This document shows positions 1,419-9,055 of a stretch of DNA of 41,222 nucleotides, in pieces (within the stretch, counting starts at the first letter, position 1; every line of letters begins with the position of its first letter). The translations under genes were made by a program, and so were the position numbers. The DNA comes from a virus (Duplodnaviria; Heunggongvirae; Uroviricota; Caudoviricetes), in IMG/VR virus record IMGVR_UViG_2588253749_000003, positions 1 through 41,222 of that record, one strand, 5' to 3'. The notes under the pieces are model-generated. The model had not been told where the DNA came from. It saw nothing but the letters and a program-made list of their open reading frames with translations, and made no database searches.

Positions 1419-3890
1419 TTAAAAATCAGCCTGATTCGGAATCAGTTTTTGCCAGATAGCTGAAACGTATTTTGCCTGGTAACGGGCGTCATCAAGTGCA
1501 TTATGGCGCTCACCTTCGAATGGAATAGCCGTTCTGGCATCGAAGTCTATGGCTTTCCCCAGCTCAACGATTGTGCGTACATCGCGATCGTTGTAGTAAC
1601 GCCACGGGCAGGGGATCCCCTGCCGTTCGTATGAACGGCGCAAAATCGTGTTGTCGAAGTTGGCTCCATTTCCCCAAACCTGAACAAAAAATTCACCGGA
1701 GTTTTCGTCGATAAATTCCCGCAATTGTAACAGTGCATCATCTAACGGGATTTCATCGGTCATAATGGCAGATTGCGCTTCGCGTGATTGCTTAAGCCAC
1801 CATTTAATGGTGTCCCGATCAATGACTCCGCCAGCAGTTTCCAGATCGATAGTCTTACTAAATTCCGGTCCCATATCTCCGGTTTGCGGATCGAAAAATA
1901 TTGCACCTATTGAGATAATCGGGGCATCAGGATTTTTTCCCATGGTTTCAAGGTCGATCATTAGATGGTCACACGTCCTGCTGGTGGATGTGATAACGCG
2001 ATGACCGTTCACCGTAATTAAGGGATCTGCCGTCTCGCCAGTTTCACTATCGCTGGCGTGATCCTGAGCGCTGCCAGCATTCTCCTTGTGTGGGTGTTCA
2101 GCGCCTTCCATTTTCTCCGAATCGTCTTCCTGAACTTCAACCTGGTTCTTGTCATCGAATGTTTCCTGGTATGTTGCGTCGCCCATCACCGCACCACAAT
2201 CAGGGCAGTTGCCACCACCGCTCTGACCGCAGGCGGTGCAGATTTTTTCCGGTTCCTGTTGCACTACTGGTTCAGGTTGTTTCGTTTCTGGCTCGTTTTG
2301 TTGCGTATTTGGGCTGTTTTGTTCCGCTTTCTGGTCGTTCTGTTCCGTTTCTTGCTGGTTCTGGTTCACAGTATCGCGGGTCTGGATCCCCTTAACCCAT
2401 TTCGGATCATTCGGGTCGCTAATCCCTTCAATAAATTCACCACGTGATGCAGCAAGCAACTTATCGGCGTCAGGCTGGCTGATATTGGCTGCCTGCATAA
2501 TTTTGTTTACTTCGTCAGCGGTAACTTTTACCGGTTCTGGCTGTGCGGTCGTGTCAGATGCACCAGTATTTTGTTGTGAACCTGAGTATGTACTGTTTTT
2601 GCGGGCGAAATATTCTTCTTTCGTGATTTCAGTAGCCCCGGCAGCCAGCGCCTTATCCAGACCAGAAAGTTTGTTTGCGCGACCGTATTTTTCGCCATCC
2701 TTGTCGGTGAAGAGGAAGTAGAACGGCCCCTCACGCTCTACAGATGGTTCGACTTCCACTTTGCATTCGGTTTTTTCGTTGTCCGGAATTGCCGTTTCCA
2801 CTGCATCAGTTTCTGGTACTGGCGACGAGAGAGTATCAGTTGCGCTCTGATTTGTTCCTTCATCTTCAAACACGCCCTTTGTAGTCAGGTATTCAGTAAT
2901 GTATTTGTTCAGTGCCACAGGATCTTTGTGAATGTCGATCGGACGTTCACGGACAAGGCCAAAAATAGTCTGGCGGTCGTAGCGAAGGGCATCAGGCTGT
3001 TTGCGCATCGATGCCGAGATACGCTTCCAGTCTTCGCGGTCGTTGTCGATAACTTCATTTTTTGCCCAGCGATGGATGCTGCCGTCAATGTTTCCGGCAT
3101 CCACATCACCAGGCCAGAGAGCGTAGGCCAGTTCGTCATCCAGTGTTTTCCATGTCTGCTTGTATTCGCGATGAGTGGCAGCAATGACCGGGTTGATTTT
3201 TCCTGTTGAATTTTCAGTGTTCTGTTGATTGGCTCTGGCGCGGGCGAGATCAACAACAGACGTGTATTTTCCGGTTTCCTTGCGTTCACCTTCGCGACGT
3301 TTTTTCCAGATGCGCATCTCTGCCTGAATTTCGGGCCATTTAGCACCAGGAATACATTTATGCTTAACCCACCCAATGGCGTGCAACTTAAGCTCCGGAT
3401 ACATGGCGTTAACTTCTGGCATTTTCATCAACGCTTCAACGATATGTCCGTCGAATGTTGCCATGTCTTCCTGCAACAGTTCCTGTGCACTAATCACCAT
3501 ATCAACGGTGATGTTTTCACATGTGTCGAACTTAACCATGACAGCGTTCTGTACTTCAGGGGCCAGCTTGTCAAAAGTGACGTTCATCGGATTTGATTCA
3601 GTCTCAACCGGGACAAAGGAAGCTGACTCCTCATCCCAGCGGTTTTCCTGCATATATTCAGCATCCCAGGAATCGAGGGCAGGGCGGGGTATACCGGGTT
3701 TATCCTCGCAAACAAGAAATTTATAAGCGCAGTCCTGAGCAGCCGGATAATGTTCCAGGAATTGCCAGTGAAATTTTGCGCGGGCGCGGCGTTCGTCGCC
3801 AGCTTCAATGGCAGTGGCTACAGCGACTGCACCTTCTTCCTTTATTGCCTGTTCGTCCGGAATAGCGGCGCAAATAAAGACTTTACTCAT
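1419..3890 (-). CDS. Large early protein with C-terminal DnaQ-like DEDDh 3'-5' exonuclease domain, Cys4 zinc-ribbon and acidic/Gln-rich low-complexity linker
   Basis: 823-aa ORF; C-terminal motifs DLETMG (Exo I), WGNGANFDNTIL (Exo II), HNALDDARY (Exo III); CTACGQSGGGNCPDCG zinc ribbon; QNQQETEQNDQKAEQN... linker. Confidence 0.7.
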   Translation of the reverse strand: MSKVFICAAIPDEQAIKEEGAVAVATAIEAGDERRARAKFHWQFLEHYPAAQDCAYKFLVCEDKPGIPRPALDSWDAEYMQENRWDEESASFVPVETESNPMNVTFDKLAPEVQNAVMVKFDTCENITVDMVISAQELLQEDMATFDGHIVEALMKMPEVNAMYPELKLHAIGWVKHKCIPGAKWPEIQAEMRIWKKRREGERKETGKYTSVVDLARARANQQNTENSTGKINPVIAATHREYKQTWKTLDDELAYALWPGDVDAGNIDGSIHRWAKNEVIDNDREDWKRISASMRKQPDALRYDRQTIFGLVRERPIDIHKDPVALNKYITEYLTTKGVFEDEGTNQSATDTLSSPVPETDAVETAIPDNEKTECKVEVEPSVEREGPFYFLFTDKDGEKYGRANKLSGLDKALAAGATEITKEEYFARKNSTYSGSQQNTGASDTTAQPEPVKVTADEVNKIMQAANISQPDADKLLAASRGEFIEGISDPNDPKWVKGIQTRDTVNQNQQETEQNDQKAEQNSPNTQQNEPETKQPEPVVQQEPEKICTACGQSGGGNCPDCGAVMGDATYQETFDDKNQVEVQEDDSEKMEGAEHPHKENAGSAQDHASDSETGETADPLITVNGHRVITSTSRTCDHLMIDLETMGKNPDAPIISIGAIFFDPQTGDMGPEFSKTIDLETAGGVIDRDTIKWWLKQSREAQSAIMTDEIPLDDALLQLREFIDENSGEFFVQVWGNGANFDNTILRRSYERQGIPCPWRYYNDRDVRTIVELGKAIDFDARTAIPFEGERHNALDDARYQAKYVSAIWQKLIPNQADF

Positions 3891-3970: not shown

Positions 3971-4174
3971 TTACGGTGCTGTTTTAAGTCCTGCCGGGAT
4001 TTCGTTATTATCCATGTGAATAACTTTATCGACCGGATAACAGTTACCGGGAATTTTCTGTTCCGCTGCGGCAACCATGCATTCTTTCATTGAGCCGTAT
4101 ACGCCAGTAACCATGTCAACCGGTTCACCGGAAACAAGAAAAACCGTCAGAACAAGTGCAAATGTAGTATTCAT
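3971..4174 (-). CDS. Small predicted secreted protein (signal-peptide-like N-terminus)
   Basis: ORF with hydrophobic N-terminus MNTTFALVLTVFLVSG; AAGGA SD before internal ATG; no recognisable family. Confidence 0.35.
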   Translation of the reverse strand: MNTTFALVLTVFLVSGEPVDMVTGVYGSMKECMVAAAEQKIPGNCYPVDKVIHMDNNEIPAGLKTAP

Positions 4175-4361
4175 TGCCAGCATCCTTTTTGCATCAGGCG
4201 TAAACGGGCCAGCATTGAAACAATGCATATTTTATTTAATAGCTCCCGTTCTTGTTTTCTCTTGTTAATGGCATCTTCAGTAAATACTGGGTTACTGATA
4301 GTGACACCAATTTCAAAACAACCTTCAGACGTATTAACGTTTGGTAATAACGTTTCCATTA
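4171..4361 (-). CDS. Hypothetical small protein
   Basis: ORF with GAGG SD before ATG (METLLPNV...); in leftward early operon. Confidence 0.3.
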
Positions 4362-4930
4362 TCGCGTCCTCAACAATGAATTTTGTGATGCGGCGCCTGG
4401 TGCCTCCAGGTGACGTTAACCAGTTAATAATTAACGCCGGATACAGAGAACCCACCCATAAGAACCAATACGGAAGTCAACTGGCCTTTTTAACTGTTCC
4501 GCGTGCGCTGAGCCGCATTCACCGCATCACAAAATTCACTTTAAAAGGGGCGGCTATCATGGGAAAAACAAAACGGATACCCGCCAAAAGGTAATCAACA
4601 TGGGTTGTTGCAGCGGGGTTGTCACTCAGGCGTATGGTCAACCTGACAACCCGGTAGACATTTGCGAGGAACGGAGAACCCCCGCCATACTTACCGCCGC
4701 GCCATTTCGCGGAGTGCCACAACCGGAAGCGCACGGTCGACGAAAATTTAACGACAGGCTATCTATGAACCAACTACCTCGCCGTGCGCTTTCGCGTTAT
4801 GCTCTGACTTTTCAGGGATATATCCTTTCTGTAAACTGTCAGTGCCGGATGCTCACCCGTGTCCGGCGCACACACTCCACCTCACCCGTGGAGAACTCCT
4901 TAATTACCAACCCTCAGGAGGGTGAAATTT

Positions 4931-5122
4931 ATGACACAAGAAGAAAAAGTAATGTTTCTTATGCGCCTGGCTGTGGAAACCTTTAACGCCCATTGCCAGG
5001 TGCCCCTTTCACTATCTCACGCCATTTCTCTTGCTACCGAGCAAATGGGGGAAATTGACGCCATTTACAATACATTTGAAGCATTCTTGGATAAGAAGCT
5101 TATGGCAGAGAAGCGTCAATAA
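4931..5122 (+). CDS. Hypothetical small protein (convergent to left operon)
   Basis: Strong GGAGGG SD 8 nt upstream of ATG at 4931; 63-aa ORF; function unknown. Confidence 0.4.
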   Translation: MTQEEKVMFLMRLAVETFNAHCQVPLSLSHAISLATEQMGEIDAIYNTFEAFLDKKLMAEKRQ

Positions 5123-5705
5123 TCCTCATTACCCATCGTAAATTTACAGAAGTGGGCTTGATGTTGTGTTTTTCAAGCTCGCTCTTCATGATTTCCAGCA
5201 GCTTTGAGCTGATAATAAACAAATCAGGTGCATCGTTATTATTTTTATCCGCATCGTCTTTTTTCGTTTTTAACTCTTGCGGTGAATGTTCGAAAGCAAC
5301 TTGCAGGGTATTATTTTTAACATCCACAGAGCTTAAAATATGTGCATATGGATGTGCTATTGTGCGCCCCTGTAAATTTGCATCGTTTTCTAAATCTTTT
5401 GATTTCAACAGAACATCGGCAAGACTCTGAATCATGCAGAGATAATCAAAAACAGTTGCCGTTTCTGTTCTGATTGCTGAAATAACATGACCATTCAGGC
5501 AAACAGAAATTACCCGTTCATCAATATCGTTTTCCTGTTTTTGATTATCAGAACCATATAGCCCTGAAAAAGCATTGCGCACATTACGAACCATATTATC
5601 GATGGTTTCTTTTTTGGTGTATGCCGGGTCAATTTTCACCAGACTATCACCGAGTGTCGTTGCAGCAATTATCTGGATTTCTTTTGGTAAATCTTTAAAT
5701 TCCAT
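5100..5705 (-). CDS. Hypothetical protein (AT-rich accessory gene)
   Basis: 201-aa ORF in visibly AT-rich segment; no recognisable motif. Confidence 0.5.
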   Translation of the reverse strand: MEFKDLPKEIQIIAATTLGDSLVKIDPAYTKKETIDNMVRNVRNAFSGLYGSDNQKQENDIDERVISVCLNGHVISAIRTETATVFDYLCMIQSLADVLLKSKDLENDANLQGRTIAHPYAHILSSVDVKNNTLQVAFEHSPQELKTKKDDADKNNNDAPDLFIISSKLLEIMKSELEKHNIKPTSVNLRWVMRIIDASLP

Positions 5706-5727
5706 TATTAGCCTCGTTGGTTAACCA

Positions 5728-5946
5728 TTAACGTGGGTATGTAATCATTCTGGCAATGCTTAATGCCGCTGCTTTTTCCAGATTGGTGATATCCTGCTCC
5801 AGAGCGGACAGATTTTCAGCCTGCTTAGCCCTGGCTTCATTGGCCCATTTCAGGTCCTGCGCAGCCTTAATTTTCTGGTGCATCCACTCATAAAGTTCAT
5901 CATCGGTATAGTCTGGCGCGATGATGACGGGTTCTCGTTTCTGCAT
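5728..5946 (-). CDS. Hypothetical small protein (coiled-coil-like)
   Basis: 72-aa ORF, tightly spaced after next gene. Confidence 0.4.
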   Translation of the reverse strand: MQKREPVIIAPDYTDDELYEWMHQKIKAAQDLKWANEARAKQAENLSALEQDITNLEKAAALSIARMITYPR

Positions 5947-5976
5947 ACTGATTCCTCGCGGTGCTGCTTCGCTTAT

Positions 5977-6105
5977 CAGCCGTTAGATTTTGCCGGGCTG
6001 GAAAGCGCCTGTATAAACTCACTGAAGCTGAGAGCTTCTTCGCCTTTGGCAAGGCCTTCGAAGTATTCTTCGTAAGCCTTTTCCATGATTGTGTCGAAAT
6101 CCATA
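5977..6105 (-). CDS. Hypothetical small acidic protein (42 aa, below the track's 60-aa cutoff)
   Basis: Hand-translated MDFDTIMEKAYEEYFEGLAKGEEALSFSEFIQALSSPAKSNG; start 1 nt after stop of upstream ORF. Confidence 0.3.
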
Positions 6106-6261
6106 TCACTCACCTGAGTTTCTTTCCAGCCAGCGACGGGCACCATTTTCGGTTTTAAACGTTTTGCTTTTGGTATACGTCATCGCGGTGAACGTACCGT
6201 CCTGGTTGGGGAACACGCCACATACCAGAGATTCGTTGTTGCCAAGATCGATAGTATCCAT
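6106..6261 (-). CDS. Hypothetical small protein, first gene of leftward early operon
   Basis: ORF 6106-6342 in track; ATG at 6261 with GAGG SD (MDTIDLGNNE...) preferred. Confidence 0.4.
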   Translation of the reverse strand: MDTIDLGNNESLVCGVFPNQDGTFTAMTYTKSKTFKTENGARRWLERNSGE

Positions 6262-6442
6262 GCTGACCTCATTTCCCCTTAACGCCGGGGTAGCGGAACA
6301 AAAACCTGCTGCATAGTTATTAAAGTTGAACCCTGCCGTCATGTTCTTACGCCTCGGGCTGGCTACTTAACCCCTGACCACTGCCTGGTAACTCGAGGTA
6401 TTGCCCTGTATTGTGTGGGACGGGATGGGTTGGTATGGGAAA

Positions 6443-6485
6443 ACTATAGGAAATGCCTAATTACTTGTCAATAGGCTATGCCTAA
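6443..6485 (-). promoter_or_regulatory. PL-like leftward early promoter with operator palindrome
   Basis: Minus-strand TTGACA (6472-6467) and TATAGT (6448-6443), 18-nt spacer; adjacent 13-bp palindrome TAGGCTATGCCTA (6473-6485). Confidence 0.55.
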
Positions 6486-6579
6486 TAATTTGGGCGCAAC
6501 CTAATAGGTGATGGTTTGTGGAAGAGGTAGTAGGAGTTAACTAACGGGAACTAGGAATTTCCCGTCGGACCATATAAGT

Positions 6580-7056
6580 TTAAGTTCCTGTCTTGGTGAT
6601 GTTCTGGCTTTTCCGTTTTGATTCTTGATTTTTCAGATAGTTAGCTACCTTCATTTCCATTGCGGCAATGTAGGCGCGAACGTCATGATCAACCCAACTA
6701 GGCTCCGTAGCATTTCCAGATAAGATGAAAGCCACAATTGCTCTTTTTTCATCAGAGGCGGCTTGATAAAGGCTGTTTATGTCTAAAAGTTCACTTTTTG
6801 TATCTGAAGTGGATGGGGTTGGTATGGGGTATTCGTTAAGCCCCCAATGCTCTGGACCAACCACATCAGAAAAGAAACGCCATAGTTCTGGAAGTTTGTC
6901 TTTACTTATCGAACCTTTCTTAATCCAGTCATGGATTGATGGTGGTTGGACTTTGAAATGACGTGCGATTTCCGCCTTTGATTTGACGGCTCCTGATGCA
7001 ATTTTTTTGTTAATGGCCTGCTCTATCGCTCGGCCTAAGTCTTTACCACTAAGCAT
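6580..7056 (-). CDS. CI-like phage repressor (XRE-family HTH)
   Basis: 158-aa ORF divergent from cro-like gene; N-terminal HTH-like region; operator-rich divergent intergenic region. Confidence 0.72.
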   Translation of the reverse strand: MLSGKDLGRAIEQAINKKIASGAVKSKAEIARHFKVQPPSIHDWIKKGSISKDKLPELWRFFSDVVGPEHWGLNEYPIPTPSTSDTKSELLDINSLYQAASDEKRAIVAFILSGNATEPSWVDHDVRAYIAAMEMKVANYLKNQESKRKSQNITKTGT

Positions 7057-7110
7057 TGCTTAATAGTCTCCTATGCGCATCGCGTTAGGCAATCCCTACT
7101 CTCGATGTAT

Positions 7111-7153
7111 TAGGCATAGCCTATTGACAATTTCATTAGGCTAAGCCTAATAT
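7111..7153 (+). promoter_or_regulatory. OR/PR-like region: two operator palindromes overlapping a rightward sigma70 promoter
   Basis: TAGGCATAGCCTA (7111-7123) and TAGGCTAAGCCTA (7137-7149); TTGACA at 7124-7129 and TAATAT at 7148-7153 (18-nt spacer) upstream of cro-like ATG 7181. Confidence 0.6.
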
Positions 7154-7180
7154 TGTTGCGTGTTTTTTGGAGTTCATTCG

Positions 7181-7504
7181 ATGAAAAAAGATAACTATTC
7201 ATTCAAACGAGCTTGTGCTGTTGTCGGTGGGCAATCAGCAATGGCTAGGCTTTTAGGTGTATCTCCTCCAAGCGTAAATCAATGGATCAAAGGTGTACGT
7301 CAGTTACCTGCTGAGAGATGTCCTGCGATTGAACGAGCAACAAAAGGTGGTGTCCTGTGTGAAGAACTTCGTCCTGATGTTGATTGGACATACTTACGAC
7401 GCTCGTCATGTTATTCGCAGAATATGTCGATGAAGCAACCAAATGACGAAAACGATCATACCCGAAGCATCAAGAGGCAAATGATTCATGAAAATCAAAC
7501 ATGA
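7181..7504 (+). CDS. Cro-like / YdaS-like HTH regulator
   Basis: ATG 7181 with GGAG SD; HTH-like QSAMARLLGVSPPSVNQWIKG; divergent from repressor. Confidence 0.7.
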   Translation: MKKDNYSFKRACAVVGGQSAMARLLGVSPPSVNQWIKGVRQLPAERCPAIERATKGGVLCEELRPDVDWTYLRRSSCYSQNMSMKQPNDENDHTRSIKRQMIHENQT

Positions 7505-7913
7505 GCACATCCGCATGGCGATGAATGCCTGGGCATACCCTGATGGTGAGAAAGTTCCTGCAGCTGAAATAGCCCGGACTTATTTCGAACTGGGGATGAC
7601 GTTCCCTGAACTGTATGACGACAGCCATCCGGAAGCCCTGGCTCGCAATACCCAGAAAATTTTCCGCTGGGTAGAGAAAGACACCCCTGATGCAGTTGAA
7701 AAAATTCAGGCGTTGTTACCAGCGATCGAAAAGGCAATGCCACCTTTGCTGGTGGCCAGAATGCGCAGCCACAGTTCAGCTTATTTTCGGGAGCTGGTGG
7801 AGATGCGGGAGCGACTGGTGAGAGACGCTGATGATTTTGTCGCAGTGGCAATCGCCGGTTTCAATCAGATGAACCGTGGTGGCCCGGCAGGAAATGCTGT
7901 GGCAGTACATTGA
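7488..7913 (+). CDS. YdaT-like (CII-like) regulatory protein
   Basis: 141-aa ORF overlapping cro-like stop; N-terminus MKIKHEHI... and size recall Rac YdaT-family proteins (from memory). Confidence 0.55.
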   Translation: MKIKHEHIRMAMNAWAYPDGEKVPAAEIARTYFELGMTFPELYDDSHPEALARNTQKIFRWVEKDTPDAVEKIQALLPAIEKAMPPLLVARMRSHSSAYFRELVEMRERLVRDADDFVAVAIAGFNQMNRGGPAGNAVAVH

Positions 7914-7984
7914 CTGACAATAGCCATATCGAATCGCTTCCGGCAACTCGTGAGTAAAAAGATTCGGTATCAGAAGAGGTGAGT

Positions 7985-9055
7985 ATGGCTAACGCCTGGC
8001 TCAGATTATGGCATGACATGCCAAATGACCCTAAGTGGCGAACAATTGCCAGGGTGTCAGGGCAGCCAATTGCAACAGTGATGGCAGTGTATATCCACCT
8101 CCTGGTGAGCGCGTCACGAAATGTCACGCGAGGTCACATTGATGTCACGACAGAAGATTTGGCAAGTGCGCTCGACGTGACAGAAGAGGTAATTGATTCA
8201 ATTTTGCAGACGATGCAGGGGCGGGTACTTGATGGTGATTTAATCACTGGATGGGAAAAACGCCAGGTGCTGAAAGAGGACAACGGCAATATTTCGCAAA
8301 CCGCAAAATCTCCGGCAGAGCGCAAGAGGGCGCAGCGAGAGAGGGAAAGAAAGCGGGAACAAAATGGCGATTGTCACGGCGAGTCACGAAATGTCACGCA
8401 CATGTCACGACGAGTCACGACAGATAAAGATACAGATAAAGATACAGATCAAGAAGATCAAAACACTATGGTCCATGGCGTAAAAAACGCCACGAACCAG
8501 GCAGGGGATGTTCAGACCGTCACTCCTGGCCAGCCCGCAGGCACGACACCGGAAGCCGATTCAGCGTATGCGCTGAAAGCCGATTCGGGCGCTGTGCAGC
8601 AGGTGATGACCGCAAGGCAGGAGCAATCACACCAACTTCAGCAGCCTGAAGCCGATTCCGCCATTCAGCGGGAAGCCGATCGGGTAGTCCCGGAAAACAC
8701 CGGGCAGCCTGTGGGACGAGTGGATTATCCTGATGTGTTCGAACAGGTCTGGCGGGAATACCCGTTGCGTGCTGGGGCAAACCCGAAGAAATCCGCTTTC
8801 AGTGCCTGGAAGGCCAGATTACGCGAGGGGGTGTCACCAGAGGCCATGCTGGATGGCGTGAGGCGTTACGCAAGATACCTTGCGGCTACCGGGAAAACGG
8901 GAACGGAATTTGTTCAGCGAGCGACGACGTTTTTTGGACCGGACCGGAATTTTGAAAACCCCTGGCTGCTCCCGGTAAGCGGCACGAACAACCAGCGTTG
9001 TGTGAATCATATTTCTGAACCGGATACCGAAATTCCACCGGGCTTCAGGGGGTAA
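7985..9055 (+). CDS. Replisome organizer / replication initiator (O-like) with internal ori iterons
   Basis: N-terminus AWLRLWHDMPNDPKWRTIA fits phage replisome-organizer N-terminal pattern; two internal clusters of GTCACG direct repeats; GAGGTG SD before ATG 7985. Confidence 0.65.
   Translation: MANAWLRLWHDMPNDPKWRTIARVSGQPIATVMAVYIHLLVSASRNVTRGHIDVTTEDLASALDVTEEVIDSILQTMQGRVLDGDLITGWEKRQVLKEDNGNISQTAKSPAERKRAQRERERKREQNGDCHGESRNVTHMSRRVTTDKDTDKDTDQEDQNTMVHGVKNATNQAGDVQTVTPGQPAGTTPEADSAYALKADSGAVQQVMTARQEQSHQLQQPEADSAIQREADRVVPENTGQPVGRVDYPDVFEQVWREYPLRAGANPKKSAFSAWKARLREGVSPEAMLDGVRRYARYLAATGKTGTEFVQRATTFFGPDRNFENPWLLPVSGTNNQRCVNHISEPDTEIPPGFRG
8112..8152. repeat. Iteron cluster 1 (4 copies GTCACG/GTCACA at about 10-11 bp spacing)
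   Basis: gcGTCACGaaatGTCACGcgagGTCACattgatGTCACGacag read directly. Confidence 0.7.
8372..8447. repeat. Iteron cluster 2 (5 copies GTCACG) followed by tandem cagataaagata repeats
   Basis: ttGTCACGgcgaGTCACGaaatGTCACGcacatGTCACGacgaGTCACGacag then gataaagatacagataaagatacagat. Confidence 0.7.

What the first reader, a model, noticed from the sequence alone, without database searches (positions are those of the whole stretch)
6443..7153. Immunity region with three 13-bp palindromic operators overlapping divergent promoters
Palindromes of form TAGGC-N3-GCCTA occur at 6473-6485 (next to a leftward TTGACA/TATAGT promoter), 7111-7123 and 7137-7149 (bracketing a rightward TTGACA-18-TAATAT promoter upstream of the cro-like gene), flanking the CI-like repressor gene. 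The 13-bp operator sequence may define the immunity specificity of this phage.
Basis: seen in the sequence. Interest (0 to 1): 0.4.

Follow-up and report, generated by a model that had tools for sequence, protein, structure and literature searches.

The report
RacR prophage repressor operators, both sides
The palindromes are real and are the already-published binding sites of the RacR prophage repressor in an E. coli Rac-type prophage, so this is an ordinary, known phage on/off switch; the only part I could not find in the literature is the second site cluster on the far side of the repressor gene.

Summary
TAGGC-N3-GCCTA occurs exactly three times in 41 kb (6472-6484, 7111-7123, 7137-7149; 0.01 expected). 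One-mismatch sites at 6447-6459 and 7086-7098, and a two-mismatch site over the repressor start codon (7050-7062), complete a layout of four sites on the right and two on the left.

The gene between the clusters is RacR: it passes the NCBIfam equivalog cut-off and is 91% identical to K-12 RacR. It is flanked by YdaS (Cro-like) and YdaT (CII-like).

The motif, RacR binding to the racR-ydaS intergenic region (EMSA, DNase I footprint) and the TTGACA-18-TAATAT promoter are published for K-12 Rac. About 20% of complete E. coli genomes carry this cassette.

I did not find the left pair described for RacR. It overlaps a leftward TTGACA-17-TATAGT promoter. Comparative evidence supports it strongly:
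- The same operator/-35/operator/-10 module lies downstream of RacR-type repressor genes in 25 of 62 loci across Gamma- and Betaproteobacteria, and in 114 of 119 viral contigs found by the DNA motif alone.
- Half-sites are 59/60 conserved against K-12, versus 145/196 for other non-coding positions.

Verdict: a known lambdoid-type switch, with low interest.

The parts
6443..6471 (-). PL-type leftward promoter: -35 TTGACA (6471-6466), 17-bp spacer, -10 TATAGT (6448-6443). Predicted start is near 6436. It points into ydfA, ydfC, dicB, exo, xis and int.
   Evidence: Promoter scan, 11 of 12 matches. Both hexamers are identical in K-12 Rac. The same operator/TTGACA/operator/-10 module is found in 25 relatives. 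The transcription start is inferred, not measured.
6447..6459 (.). OL1: TAGGAAATGCCTA (1 mismatch). Covers the spacer and the first 2 bp of the PL -10.
   Evidence: Its position mirrors OR1 at PR.
6472..6484 (.). OL2: TAGGCTATGCCTA (perfect). Abuts the PL -35, 25 bp centre to centre from OL1.
   Evidence: Together with the -35 it forms a 23-bp perfect inverted repeat with 7108-7130.
6491..6514 (.). Possible weak third left site or half-site: TGGGCGCAACCTA (2 mismatches), plus the conserved block AACCTAATAGGTGATGG. Uncertain.
   Evidence: two-mismatch sites are at chance level across the window. The block 6498-6514 is identical in K-12. Its 19-bp offset differs from the 25-bp rule. Unexplained.
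6580..7056 (-). racR, the repressor (158 aa).
   Evidence: NCBIfam NF049929 equivalog, 246 bits against a cut-off of 200. 91% identical to K-12 RacR. Annotated racR in RefSeq. Model: N-terminal helical HTH domain, disordered linker at residues 80-89, helical C-terminal domain.
7050..7062 (.). OR4: TAAGCATTGCTTA (2 symmetric mismatches), centred on the racR start codon. This is the published O3.
   Evidence: Identical in K-12. The equivalent site in relatives is TAGGCAATGCTTA. PMC9638921 places an operator whose n3 spacer overlaps the ATG.
7086..7098 (.). OR3: TAGGCAATCCCTA (1 mismatch).
   Evidence: Identical in K-12.
7111..7123 (.). OR2: TAGGCATAGCCTA (perfect). Abuts the PR -35.
7137..7149 (.). 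OR1: TAGGCTAAGCCTA (perfect; the 17-bp palindrome ATTAGGCTAAGCCTAAT). Covers the spacer and the first 2 bp of the PR -10. This is the published O1.
   Evidence: In PMC9638921 the lowest RacR concentration protects the ydaST promoter region.
7124..7153 (+). PR-type rightward promoter (PydaST): TTGACA, 18 bp, TAATAT.
   Evidence: Same hexamers and spacing as the K-12 promoter, which was mapped by primer extension and -10 mutagenesis (PMC9638921, PMC11879457).
7181..7504 (+). ydaS, the Cro-like gene (107 aa).
   Evidence: Pfam YdaS_toxin 3.8e-30 and P22_Cro 1e-8. 85% identical to K-12 YdaS.
7481..7498 (.). YdaT box: ATGATTCATGAAAATCAA, at the ydaS/ydaT junction.
   Evidence: Matches the published reference repeat ATGATT-n6-AATCAA (PMC11879457).
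7488..7913 (+). ydaT, the CII-like gene (141 aa).
   Evidence: Pfam YdaT_toxin 6.8e-10. PHROG 163, CII-like activator, 3.9e-45. Only 33% identical to K-12 YdaT.
6262..6436 (-). PL leader: C-rich at its 5' end and not structured. It is shared with phages that have a different repressor.
   Evidence: homology with vB_EcoS-666R9 starts near 6435. Fold z-score +1.5. No Rfam match.

Best explanation
This is the immunity switch of a Rac-type lambdoid prophage of E. coli.

Right-hand cluster. RacR dimers bind 13-bp inverted repeats with the half-site (A)TTAGGC. Four sites lie between racR and ydaS, centred at 7143, 7117, 7092 and 7056 (spacings 26, 25 and 36 bp). OR1 covers the -10 and OR2 abuts the -35 of the strong rightward promoter, so together they shut off ydaS (Cro-like) and ydaT (CII-like). 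OR3 and OR4 cover the racR promoters and the start of what is probably a leaderless racR mRNA, which gives autoregulation.

Left-hand cluster. Two sites downstream of racR (centres 6453 and 6478, 25 bp apart) bracket a mirror-image leftward promoter in the same way. They keep the early-left operon silent (ydfA, ydfC, dicB, exo, xis, int).

Status of each step:
- Shown here: the sites, their geometry, their selective conservation, and their co-occurrence with the RacR N-terminal domain.
- Shown by others on the K-12 orthologue: RacR binding and repression at the right-hand cluster.
- Inferred: RacR binding and repression at the left-hand pair, and the exact transcription starts.
For: Site statistics. 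Promoters. Repressor identity. Neighbouring genes.

K-12 Rac has the same six sites. Between the two lineages, half-site positions are 59/60 identical and promoter hexamers 20/20, against 145/196 for other non-coding positions (Fisher p = 5e-6).

Across 61 genomes, sites recur upstream of the repressor gene at about -60, -35 and on the ATG. In 25 of 62 loci a pair of sites 24-26 bp apart lies 62 bp to 2.5 kb downstream of the gene, always as operator, TTGACA, 5-7 bp, operator, -10, pointing the same way as the repressor gene. Twenty shuffles of all loci gave 0 such pairs.

Reverse test: 114 of 119 viral contigs found by the DNA module alone encode the RacR N-terminal domain upstream on the same strand.

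The operators follow the N-terminal domain whether the C-terminal domain is RacR-type or Peptidase_S24.

Literature: EMSA with three complexes, and ChIP (PMC5700373). DNase I footprint, the (T/A)TAGGC-n3-GCCTA(T/A) operators, and mapping of PydaS (PMC9638921). Leftward Rac genes, including ydaF and ydaG, rise 40-70-fold or more when RacR is depleted (PMC6765115, PMC11014345, bioRxiv 10.64898/2026.09.06.749655).
Against: No binding or promoter assay exists for the left pair in any paper I could read. OL1, OR3 and OR4 each deviate from the consensus, so their occupancy is unknown. De-repression of the leftward genes could partly reflect read-through from the racR promoters past the Rho-dependent terminator inside racR (PMC4150792), rather than firing of PL. 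YdaS may use the same sites, as Cro does, so the sites are not necessarily exclusive to RacR.
Confidence: 0.9

Rival explanations
1. The palindromes are mainly the sites of the Cro-like protein YdaS, not of RacR.
For: ydaS belongs to the same mosaic cassette as racR and the operators: 85% identical to K-12 YdaS, whereas ydaT is only 33% identical. In the sister prophage CP-933P, the YdaS and repressor footprints overlap (PMC8630535). PMC11014345 describes RacR and YdaS as competing for the operators.
Against: The RacR footprint and EMSA cover these repeats in K-12 (PMC5700373, PMC9638921). The motif follows the RacR N-terminal domain across very distant hosts. Shared use by both proteins is likely; exclusive use by YdaS is not.
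Confidence: 0.05
2. The left-hand pair is a non-functional relic of a duplication of the PR region. The 23-bp perfect inverted repeat would then be a copy, not a working promoter and operator.
For: 6465-6487 and 7108-7130 are 100% complementary over 23 bp, which could reflect a recent copying event.
Against: The pair, the -35 and the -10 are retained in 25 diverged loci, at distances from 62 bp to 2.5 kb and with different spacer sequences, and in 114 of 119 viral contigs. Half-sites and hexamers are invariant against K-12 while flanking non-coding DNA differs by 26%. The leftward genes are de-repressed when RacR is lost (PMC6765115).
Confidence: 0.04
3. The matches are chance palindromes in AT-rich intergenic DNA.
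For: Two-mismatch matches are at chance level across the window (10 found, 11.8 expected).
Against: Exact sites: 3 found, 0.01 expected. Sites with one mismatch or fewer: 5 found, 0.73 expected, all within two 40-65-bp clusters at 25-26-bp spacing. The cross-genus conservation also argues against chance.
Confidence: 0.01

Closest known systems
racR-ydaS-ydaT immunity region of the E. coli K-12 cryptic prophage Rac (PMC5700373, PMC9638921, PMC11014345, PMC11879457)
   Same: The same repressor family (91% identity) and the same operator consensus (T/A)TAGGC-n3-GCCTA(T/A). The same four right-hand sites, including the one over the racR ATG. The same TTGACA-18-TAATAT ydaS promoter and the same YdaT box. 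K-12 also has the two left-hand sites, at the same offset from the racR stop codon.
   Different: This copy lies in a different prophage, inserted between potC and potB. Its left arm is Qin-like (ydfA, ydfC, dicB) and its ydaT allele is only 33% identical. The N3 spacers of OR1 and OR2 differ. The left-hand promoter and operator pair is not described in the RacR papers I could read.
Bacteriophage lambda OR/OL with PR, PRM and PL (CI/Cro switch). Lambda details are from established knowledge and as summarised in PMC8630535.
   Same: Repressor gene flanked by two outward promoters, each overlapped by tandem palindromic operators about 2.4 helical turns apart. Divergent cro-like and cII-like genes. 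Probable leaderless repressor mRNA. A repressor that forms octamers (PMC11014345).
   Different: 13-bp core sites instead of 17-bp sites. Four right and two left sites instead of three and three. OL lies about 100 bp past the repressor gene, with no rexAB in between. The RacR C-terminal domain is not an S24 peptidase, so there is no RecA-stimulated self-cleavage. PMC9638921 reports that YdaS does not repress racR.
CP-933P prophage switch of E. coli O157:H7: PaaR2 / YdaS / YdaT with PR933P, PRM933P and PL933P (PMC8630535)
   Same: The same gene order and the same YdaS and YdaT partners. Four repeats in the intergenic region. A tested PL with OL sites downstream of the repressor operon. An octameric repressor, with a looping idea already proposed.
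   Different: An unrelated repressor (PaaR2) and a different repeat (consensus GTTTAGTAA, 18-bp palindromes). A toxin-antitoxin pair is co-transcribed with the repressor.
Qin prophage DicA/DicC with the dicB promoter (from my own knowledge; the operon is discussed in bioRxiv 10.1101/2023.04.14.536235)
   Same: The left operon here (ydfA, ydfC, dicB) is the Qin-type dicB operon, lying downstream of and co-oriented with the repressor gene.
   Different: The repressor here is RacR, not DicA. No DicF RNA was detected by Rfam in this window.

Membership tests
RacR repressor (NCBIfam NF049929, equivalog) | Whole-protein score above the curated cut-off | tested here: met
   246.3 bits against a cut-off of 200, covering residues 1-145. 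91% identical to K-12 RacR over 158 aa.
RacR repressor (NCBIfam NF049929, equivalog) | Divergent ydaS-ydaT operon next to the gene | tested here: met
   YdaS_toxin 3.8e-30 and YdaT_toxin 6.8e-10. RefSeq annotation of the identical locus.
Published RacR operator set | Inverted repeats (T/A)TAGGC-n3-GCCTA(T/A) in the racR-ydaS intergenic region, one over the ydaS promoter and one over the racR ATG | tested here: met
   Sequences compared with K-12. Motif from PMC9638921.
Published RacR operator set | Direct binding by RacR protein | not testable with these tools
   Shown for K-12 by EMSA, ChIP and DNase I footprinting (PMC5700373, PMC9638921). Half-sites here are identical to K-12 at 59 of 60 positions.
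Lambdoid CI/Cro-type immunity switch | Repressor and cro-like genes transcribed divergently, with three or more tandem operators overlapping both promoters | tested here: met
Lambdoid CI/Cro-type immunity switch | A second operator cluster overlapping a leftward early promoter on the other side of the repressor gene | tested here: met
   By sequence and comparative evidence only. No binding or reporter data.
Lambdoid CI/Cro-type immunity switch | Repressor with a LexA-like S24 self-cleaving C-terminal domain (SOS induction) | tested here: not met
   No Pfam domain in RacR. The C-terminal domain is helical and has no convincing PDB match. Relatives with the same N-terminal domain and the same operators do carry Peptidase_S24.
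Lambdoid CI/Cro-type immunity switch | N-terminal domain with the lambda-cI / XRE helix-turn-helix fold | tested here: inconclusive
   Model mean pLDDT 80.5. The best Foldseek hits are XRE-type HTH domains (ClgR, HipB, lambda cI N-terminal domain, C proteins), with target-normalised TM about 0.6. All have E-values of 0.17 or worse. Sequence search of the PDB found nothing. PMC11014345 reports the same similarity from modelling.
Lambdoid CI/Cro-type immunity switch | Long-range OL-OR cooperation through repressor octamers | not testable with these tools
   RacR elutes as an octamer (PMC11014345). Both clusters have a pair of sites 25-26 bp apart, and the clusters are 639-690 bp apart. Looping has not been measured.

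The most novel reading that the evidence does not exclude
RacR works as a lambda-style looping octamer. One tetramer sits on the left pair (6447-6484) and one on OR1-OR2 (7111-7149), closing a loop of about 640-690 bp around racR itself. The authors of the octamer result instead proposed four dimers on the four intergenic repeats. A second point is that this operator, promoter and N-terminal-domain module is an ancient portable unit, shared by self-cleaving (S24) and non-cleaving repressors from Enterobacterales to Burkholderiales and Pseudomonas. On that view RacR is a CI-type repressor whose SOS-sensing domain was swapped out.
Probability: 0.45. Interest if true: 0.35.

Novelty: already known. 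Interest (0 to 1): 0.18.

Why it matters
The finding itself adds little. The operator sequence, its binding by RacR and the rightward promoter are published for K-12 Rac, and this locus is one of more than a thousand near-copies in sequenced E. coli.

The modest added value is the left-hand operator and promoter pair. It gives a direct, testable reason why loss of RacR de-represses the whole left arm (kilR or dicB, recET or exo, xis and int), and therefore why it triggers toxicity and excision. It also offers a concrete alternative reading of the published RacR octamer.

The conservation of one operator across repressors with different C-terminal domains is a tidy example of domain swapping in phage repressors. 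It also means that co-resident prophages of this family should cross-repress one another.

Tried and rejected
- Rfam scans of 4500-8500 (E-value mode) and of the whole window (gathering mode) found no RNA family in the immunity region or the PL leader, and no DicF.
- The PL leader folds no better than shuffled sequence (z = +1.5), so I dropped the idea of a structured antitermination RNA.
- Sequence search of the PDB gave nothing for RacR. The Foldseek search gave only weak XRE-type HTH hits.
- The two-mismatch site at 6491-6503 as a true third left operator: two-mismatch sites are at chance level, K-12 has three mismatches at the same place, and the spacing is 19 bp rather than 25 bp. It remains only a possible half-site.
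-, the conservation test against K-12, read the wrong record and should be ignored. One search is the corrected run.
- Conter et al. 1996 (J Bacteriol, Rac kil gene), which might describe a RacR-controlled leftward promoter, is not held.
- No RacR ChIP-seq or SELEX paper was found.
- The five viral contigs with the DNA module but no N-terminal-domain hit do not contradict the rule. Four have under 1.7 kb of stored upstream sequence, taken up by inserted genes; the fifth (L102) has upstream sequence, but no repressor-like ORF was found there.

Full report
**1. The observation.**
Reading 6200-7500 and searching for TAGGC-N3-GCCTA gives exactly three perfect sites in 41,222 bases. They are 6472-6484 (TAGGCTATGCCTA), 7111-7123 (TAGGCATAGCCTA) and 7137-7149 (TAGGCTAAGCCTA). 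The expectation is 0.01, and none of 100 shuffles reached three.

Allowing one mismatch adds only 6447-6459 (TAGGAAATGCCTA) and 7086-7098 (TAGGCAATCCCTA), giving 5 sites against 0.73 expected. At two mismatches the window as a whole is at chance level. One of those matches, TAAGCATTGCTTA at 7050-7062, is symmetric and sits on the repressor start codon.

The geometry is regular. On the right, the site centres are 7143, 7117, 7092 and 7056. On the left they are 6453 and 6478.

At each promoter one site abuts the -35 on its upstream side, and the other covers the spacer and the first two bases of the -10. The block made of the operator plus the -35 is a perfect 23-bp inverted repeat between the two promoters (6465-6487 and 7108-7130).

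**2. What the genes are.**
- The ORF at 6580-7056 (minus strand) has no Pfam or PHROG hit. It does pass the NCBIfam equivalog model for RacR (246 bits against a cut-off of 200) and is 91% identical to K-12 RacR.
- To its right are a YdaS/Cro-family gene (7181-7504) and a YdaT/CII-like gene (7488-7913).
- To its left are ydfA (DUF1391), ydfC, dicB, an exonuclease, an excisionase and an integrase.
- The 2-kb region is 100% identical to a prophage inserted between potC and potB in E. coli Z0117EC0005.
- The 721-bp cassette carrying both site clusters is present in 1085 of 5426 complete E. coli genomes, nearly always as a single copy.

**3. What is already published.**
- Krishnamurthi et al. 2017 (PMC5700373) noted three GCCTAA/TTAGGC repeats in the 123-bp racR-ydaS intergenic region. 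They showed RacR binding by thermal shift, ChIP-qPCR and EMSA (three complexes), and showed repression of a ydaS reporter.
- PMC9638921 mapped the transcription starts. It showed the ydaS promoter to be TTGACA, 18 bp, TAATAT, footprinted RacR with DNase I, and defined the operators as (T/A)TAGGC-n3-GCCTA(T/A). O1 lies on the ydaS promoter and O3 over the racR ATG.
- Later papers speak of four inverted repeats and show that RacR elutes as an octamer (PMC11014345). They also describe the YdaT box ATGATT-n6-AATCAA, which activates a reverse promoter (PMC11879457).

The window carries all of these elements. The YdaT box is at 7481-7498.

**4. The left-hand cluster.**
K-12 Rac has the same two sites downstream of racR, with the same TTGACA-17-TATAGT promoter. 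I found no description of them in any of these sources:
- the RacR papers, which say the RacR regulon, including the racR-proximal ydaFG operon, is not characterised (PMC11014345);
- a search for RacR ChIP or SELEX work;
- the KilR and Rho papers.

Four lines of evidence say the pair is functional.

(a) Conservation against K-12. Operator half-site positions are 59/60 identical and promoter hexamers 20/20, against 145/196 for the remaining non-coding positions (Fisher p = 5e-6).

(b) Conservation across genomes. I examined 61 loci from one-genome-per-species bacterial genomes that encode a relative of RacR. Sites recur upstream at about -60, -35 and on the ATG. In 25 of the 62 loci examined (the 61 plus this window), a pair of sites 24-26 bp apart lies downstream of the repressor gene, between 62 bp and 2.5 kb from the stop codon. 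It always takes the form operator, TTGACA, 5-7 bp, operator, -10, pointing away from the gene. Twenty shuffles of all loci gave no such pair. The hosts include Mixta, Morganella, Proteus, Erwinia, Achromobacter, Burkholderia, Bordetella, Lysobacter, Comamonas and Herbaspirillum.

(c) The reverse test. I searched viral contigs for the bare DNA module TAGGCNNNGCCTATTGACANNNNNNTAGGC. Of these, 114 encode the RacR N-terminal domain upstream on the same strand. The other five do not contradict the rule: four have under 1.7 kb of stored upstream sequence, and in the fifth no repressor-like ORF was found.

(d) Published transcriptomes. The leftward Rac genes, including ydaF and ydaG, rise 40-70-fold or more when RacR falls (PMC6765115, PMC11014345, bioRxiv 10.64898/2026.09.06.749655).

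**5. How it most likely works.**
RacR dimers recognise the half-site ATTAGGC. The flanking A and T are enriched at positions -2 and -1 in 143 distinct sites.

- Occupancy of OR1 and OR2 blocks RNA polymerase at the rightward promoter.
- Occupancy of OL1 and OL2 does the same at the leftward promoter.
- OR3 and OR4 overlap the racR promoters. In relatives, a -10-like hexamer sits exactly six bases before the ATG. This fits the leaderless racR transcript reported for K-12 and means the last operator covers +1, which would give autoregulation.

The 25-26-bp spacing is what lambda uses for cooperative pairs.

Two matching pairs of sites about 640-690 bp apart, combined with an octameric repressor, make a lambda-like loop plausible. 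That step is inference only.

**6. What the repressor is.**
The AlphaFold model (mean pLDDT 80.5) has three parts: an N-terminal helical domain, a disordered linker (residues 80-89) and a helical C-terminal domain.

Foldseek finds only weak matches, all with E-values of 0.17 or worse. The best of them are XRE / lambda-cI-type helix-turn-helix domains aligned to the N-terminal domain, and none is convincing for the C-terminal domain.

In Betaproteobacteria, Lysobacter and Pseudomonas the same N-terminal domain is fused to a Peptidase_S24 domain, and those loci have the same operators and left-hand pair. The operators therefore follow the DNA-binding domain. RacR looks like a CI-type repressor in which the self-cleaving domain has been replaced.

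**7. Limits of the cassette.**
- Phages with a different repressor share the block 6274-6435. A mosaic joint therefore falls at the predicted start of the leftward transcript.
- On the right, ydaS is 85% identical to K-12 but ydaT only 33%, so a second joint lies at the ydaS/ydaT boundary.
- The immunity module proper is thus about 6436-7510.

**8. Verdict.**
The system is already known, being RacR/YdaS/YdaT of Rac-type prophages. The motif is a family-wide specificity, not a phage-specific one. What is new relative to the literature I could read is a well-supported prediction of the left operator and promoter pair, and its deep conservation. Interest is low.

Noticed in passing
L013, L016, L019, L024, L026, L036, L046, L061 (repressor genes starting at 3001, or at 1268 in L061); also proteins P0101, P0102, P0114: The RacR N-terminal DNA-binding domain is fused to a Peptidase_S24 (LexA/CI-type) C-terminal domain in Achromobacter, Pigmentiphaga, Bordetella, Sphaerotilus, Lysobacter, Pseudomonas and Herbaspirillum. 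The same TAGGC-N3-GCCTA operators and downstream pair are present at most of these loci (in the Pseudomonas locus L046 only the start-codon site and two sites about 70 bp apart). The enterobacterial RacR C-terminal domain has no Pfam match. This looks like a domain swap that removes SOS self-cleavage.
   Followed up: partly
window 6262-6436 (minus strand): The 175-nt leader of the leftward transcript is conserved (about 86%) in phages that carry a different repressor, and the homology begins at the predicted +1. It is C-rich at its 5' end (CCCAUACCAACCCAUCCCGUCCCACAC), no more structured than shuffles, and has no Rfam match. This would suit a Rho loading site, but that was not tested. The 78-aa ORF 6106-6342 extends into it, but K-12 has a stop codon there, so the extension is probably not coding.
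   Followed up: partly
window 7455-7498: A YdaT box (ATGATTCATGAAAATCAA, 7481-7498) lies at the ydaS/ydaT junction. On the minus strand a good -10 (TATGAT, 7460-7455) with a poor -35 places the box centre near -41.5. This is the position expected for an activator-dependent promoter, like lambda PRE or the published PracR4. It is kept although this YdaT is only 33% identical to K-12 YdaT.
   Followed up: partly
window 6498-6514: The block AACCTAATAGGTGATGG, just upstream of OL2, is identical in K-12 Rac although its surroundings diverge. It contains CCTA-A-TAGG, which is two half-site cores in the opposite (tail-to-tail) arrangement. It could be a weak third left site or the site of another factor. 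Unexplained.
   Followed up: no
window 6544-6565: A hairpin, ACGGGAA-(8 nt)-TTCCCGT, lies 15 nt after the racR stop codon. K-12 keeps it through one double (compensatory) change, G-C to A-T. It has no U-run, and the terminator scan did not call it.
   Followed up: no
window 6427-6439 and 6816-6828: An exact 13-nt direct repeat, GGGTTGGTATGGG. One copy is at the start of the leftward leader. The other is inside racR, where it encodes the PIPTP linker. A chance match is unlikely in 821 bases. The meaning is unknown; it may be an old recombination joint.
   Followed up: no
window 4171-4359 and 17871-18117: The left operon carries dicB (Qin-type), but Rfam detects no DicF RNA anywhere in the window. 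Three tRNA genes sit in the late region of the prophage.
   Followed up: no
window 7050-7062: The operator over the racR ATG (TAAGCATTGCTTA) contains the CTAAG/CTTAG-like sequence reported to be bound by the restriction-modification controller C.Csp231I in K-12 (ACTAAGCATTGCTTAATATTCTC in PMC9638921). This prophage should therefore be open to the same lethal cross-talk.
   Followed up: no
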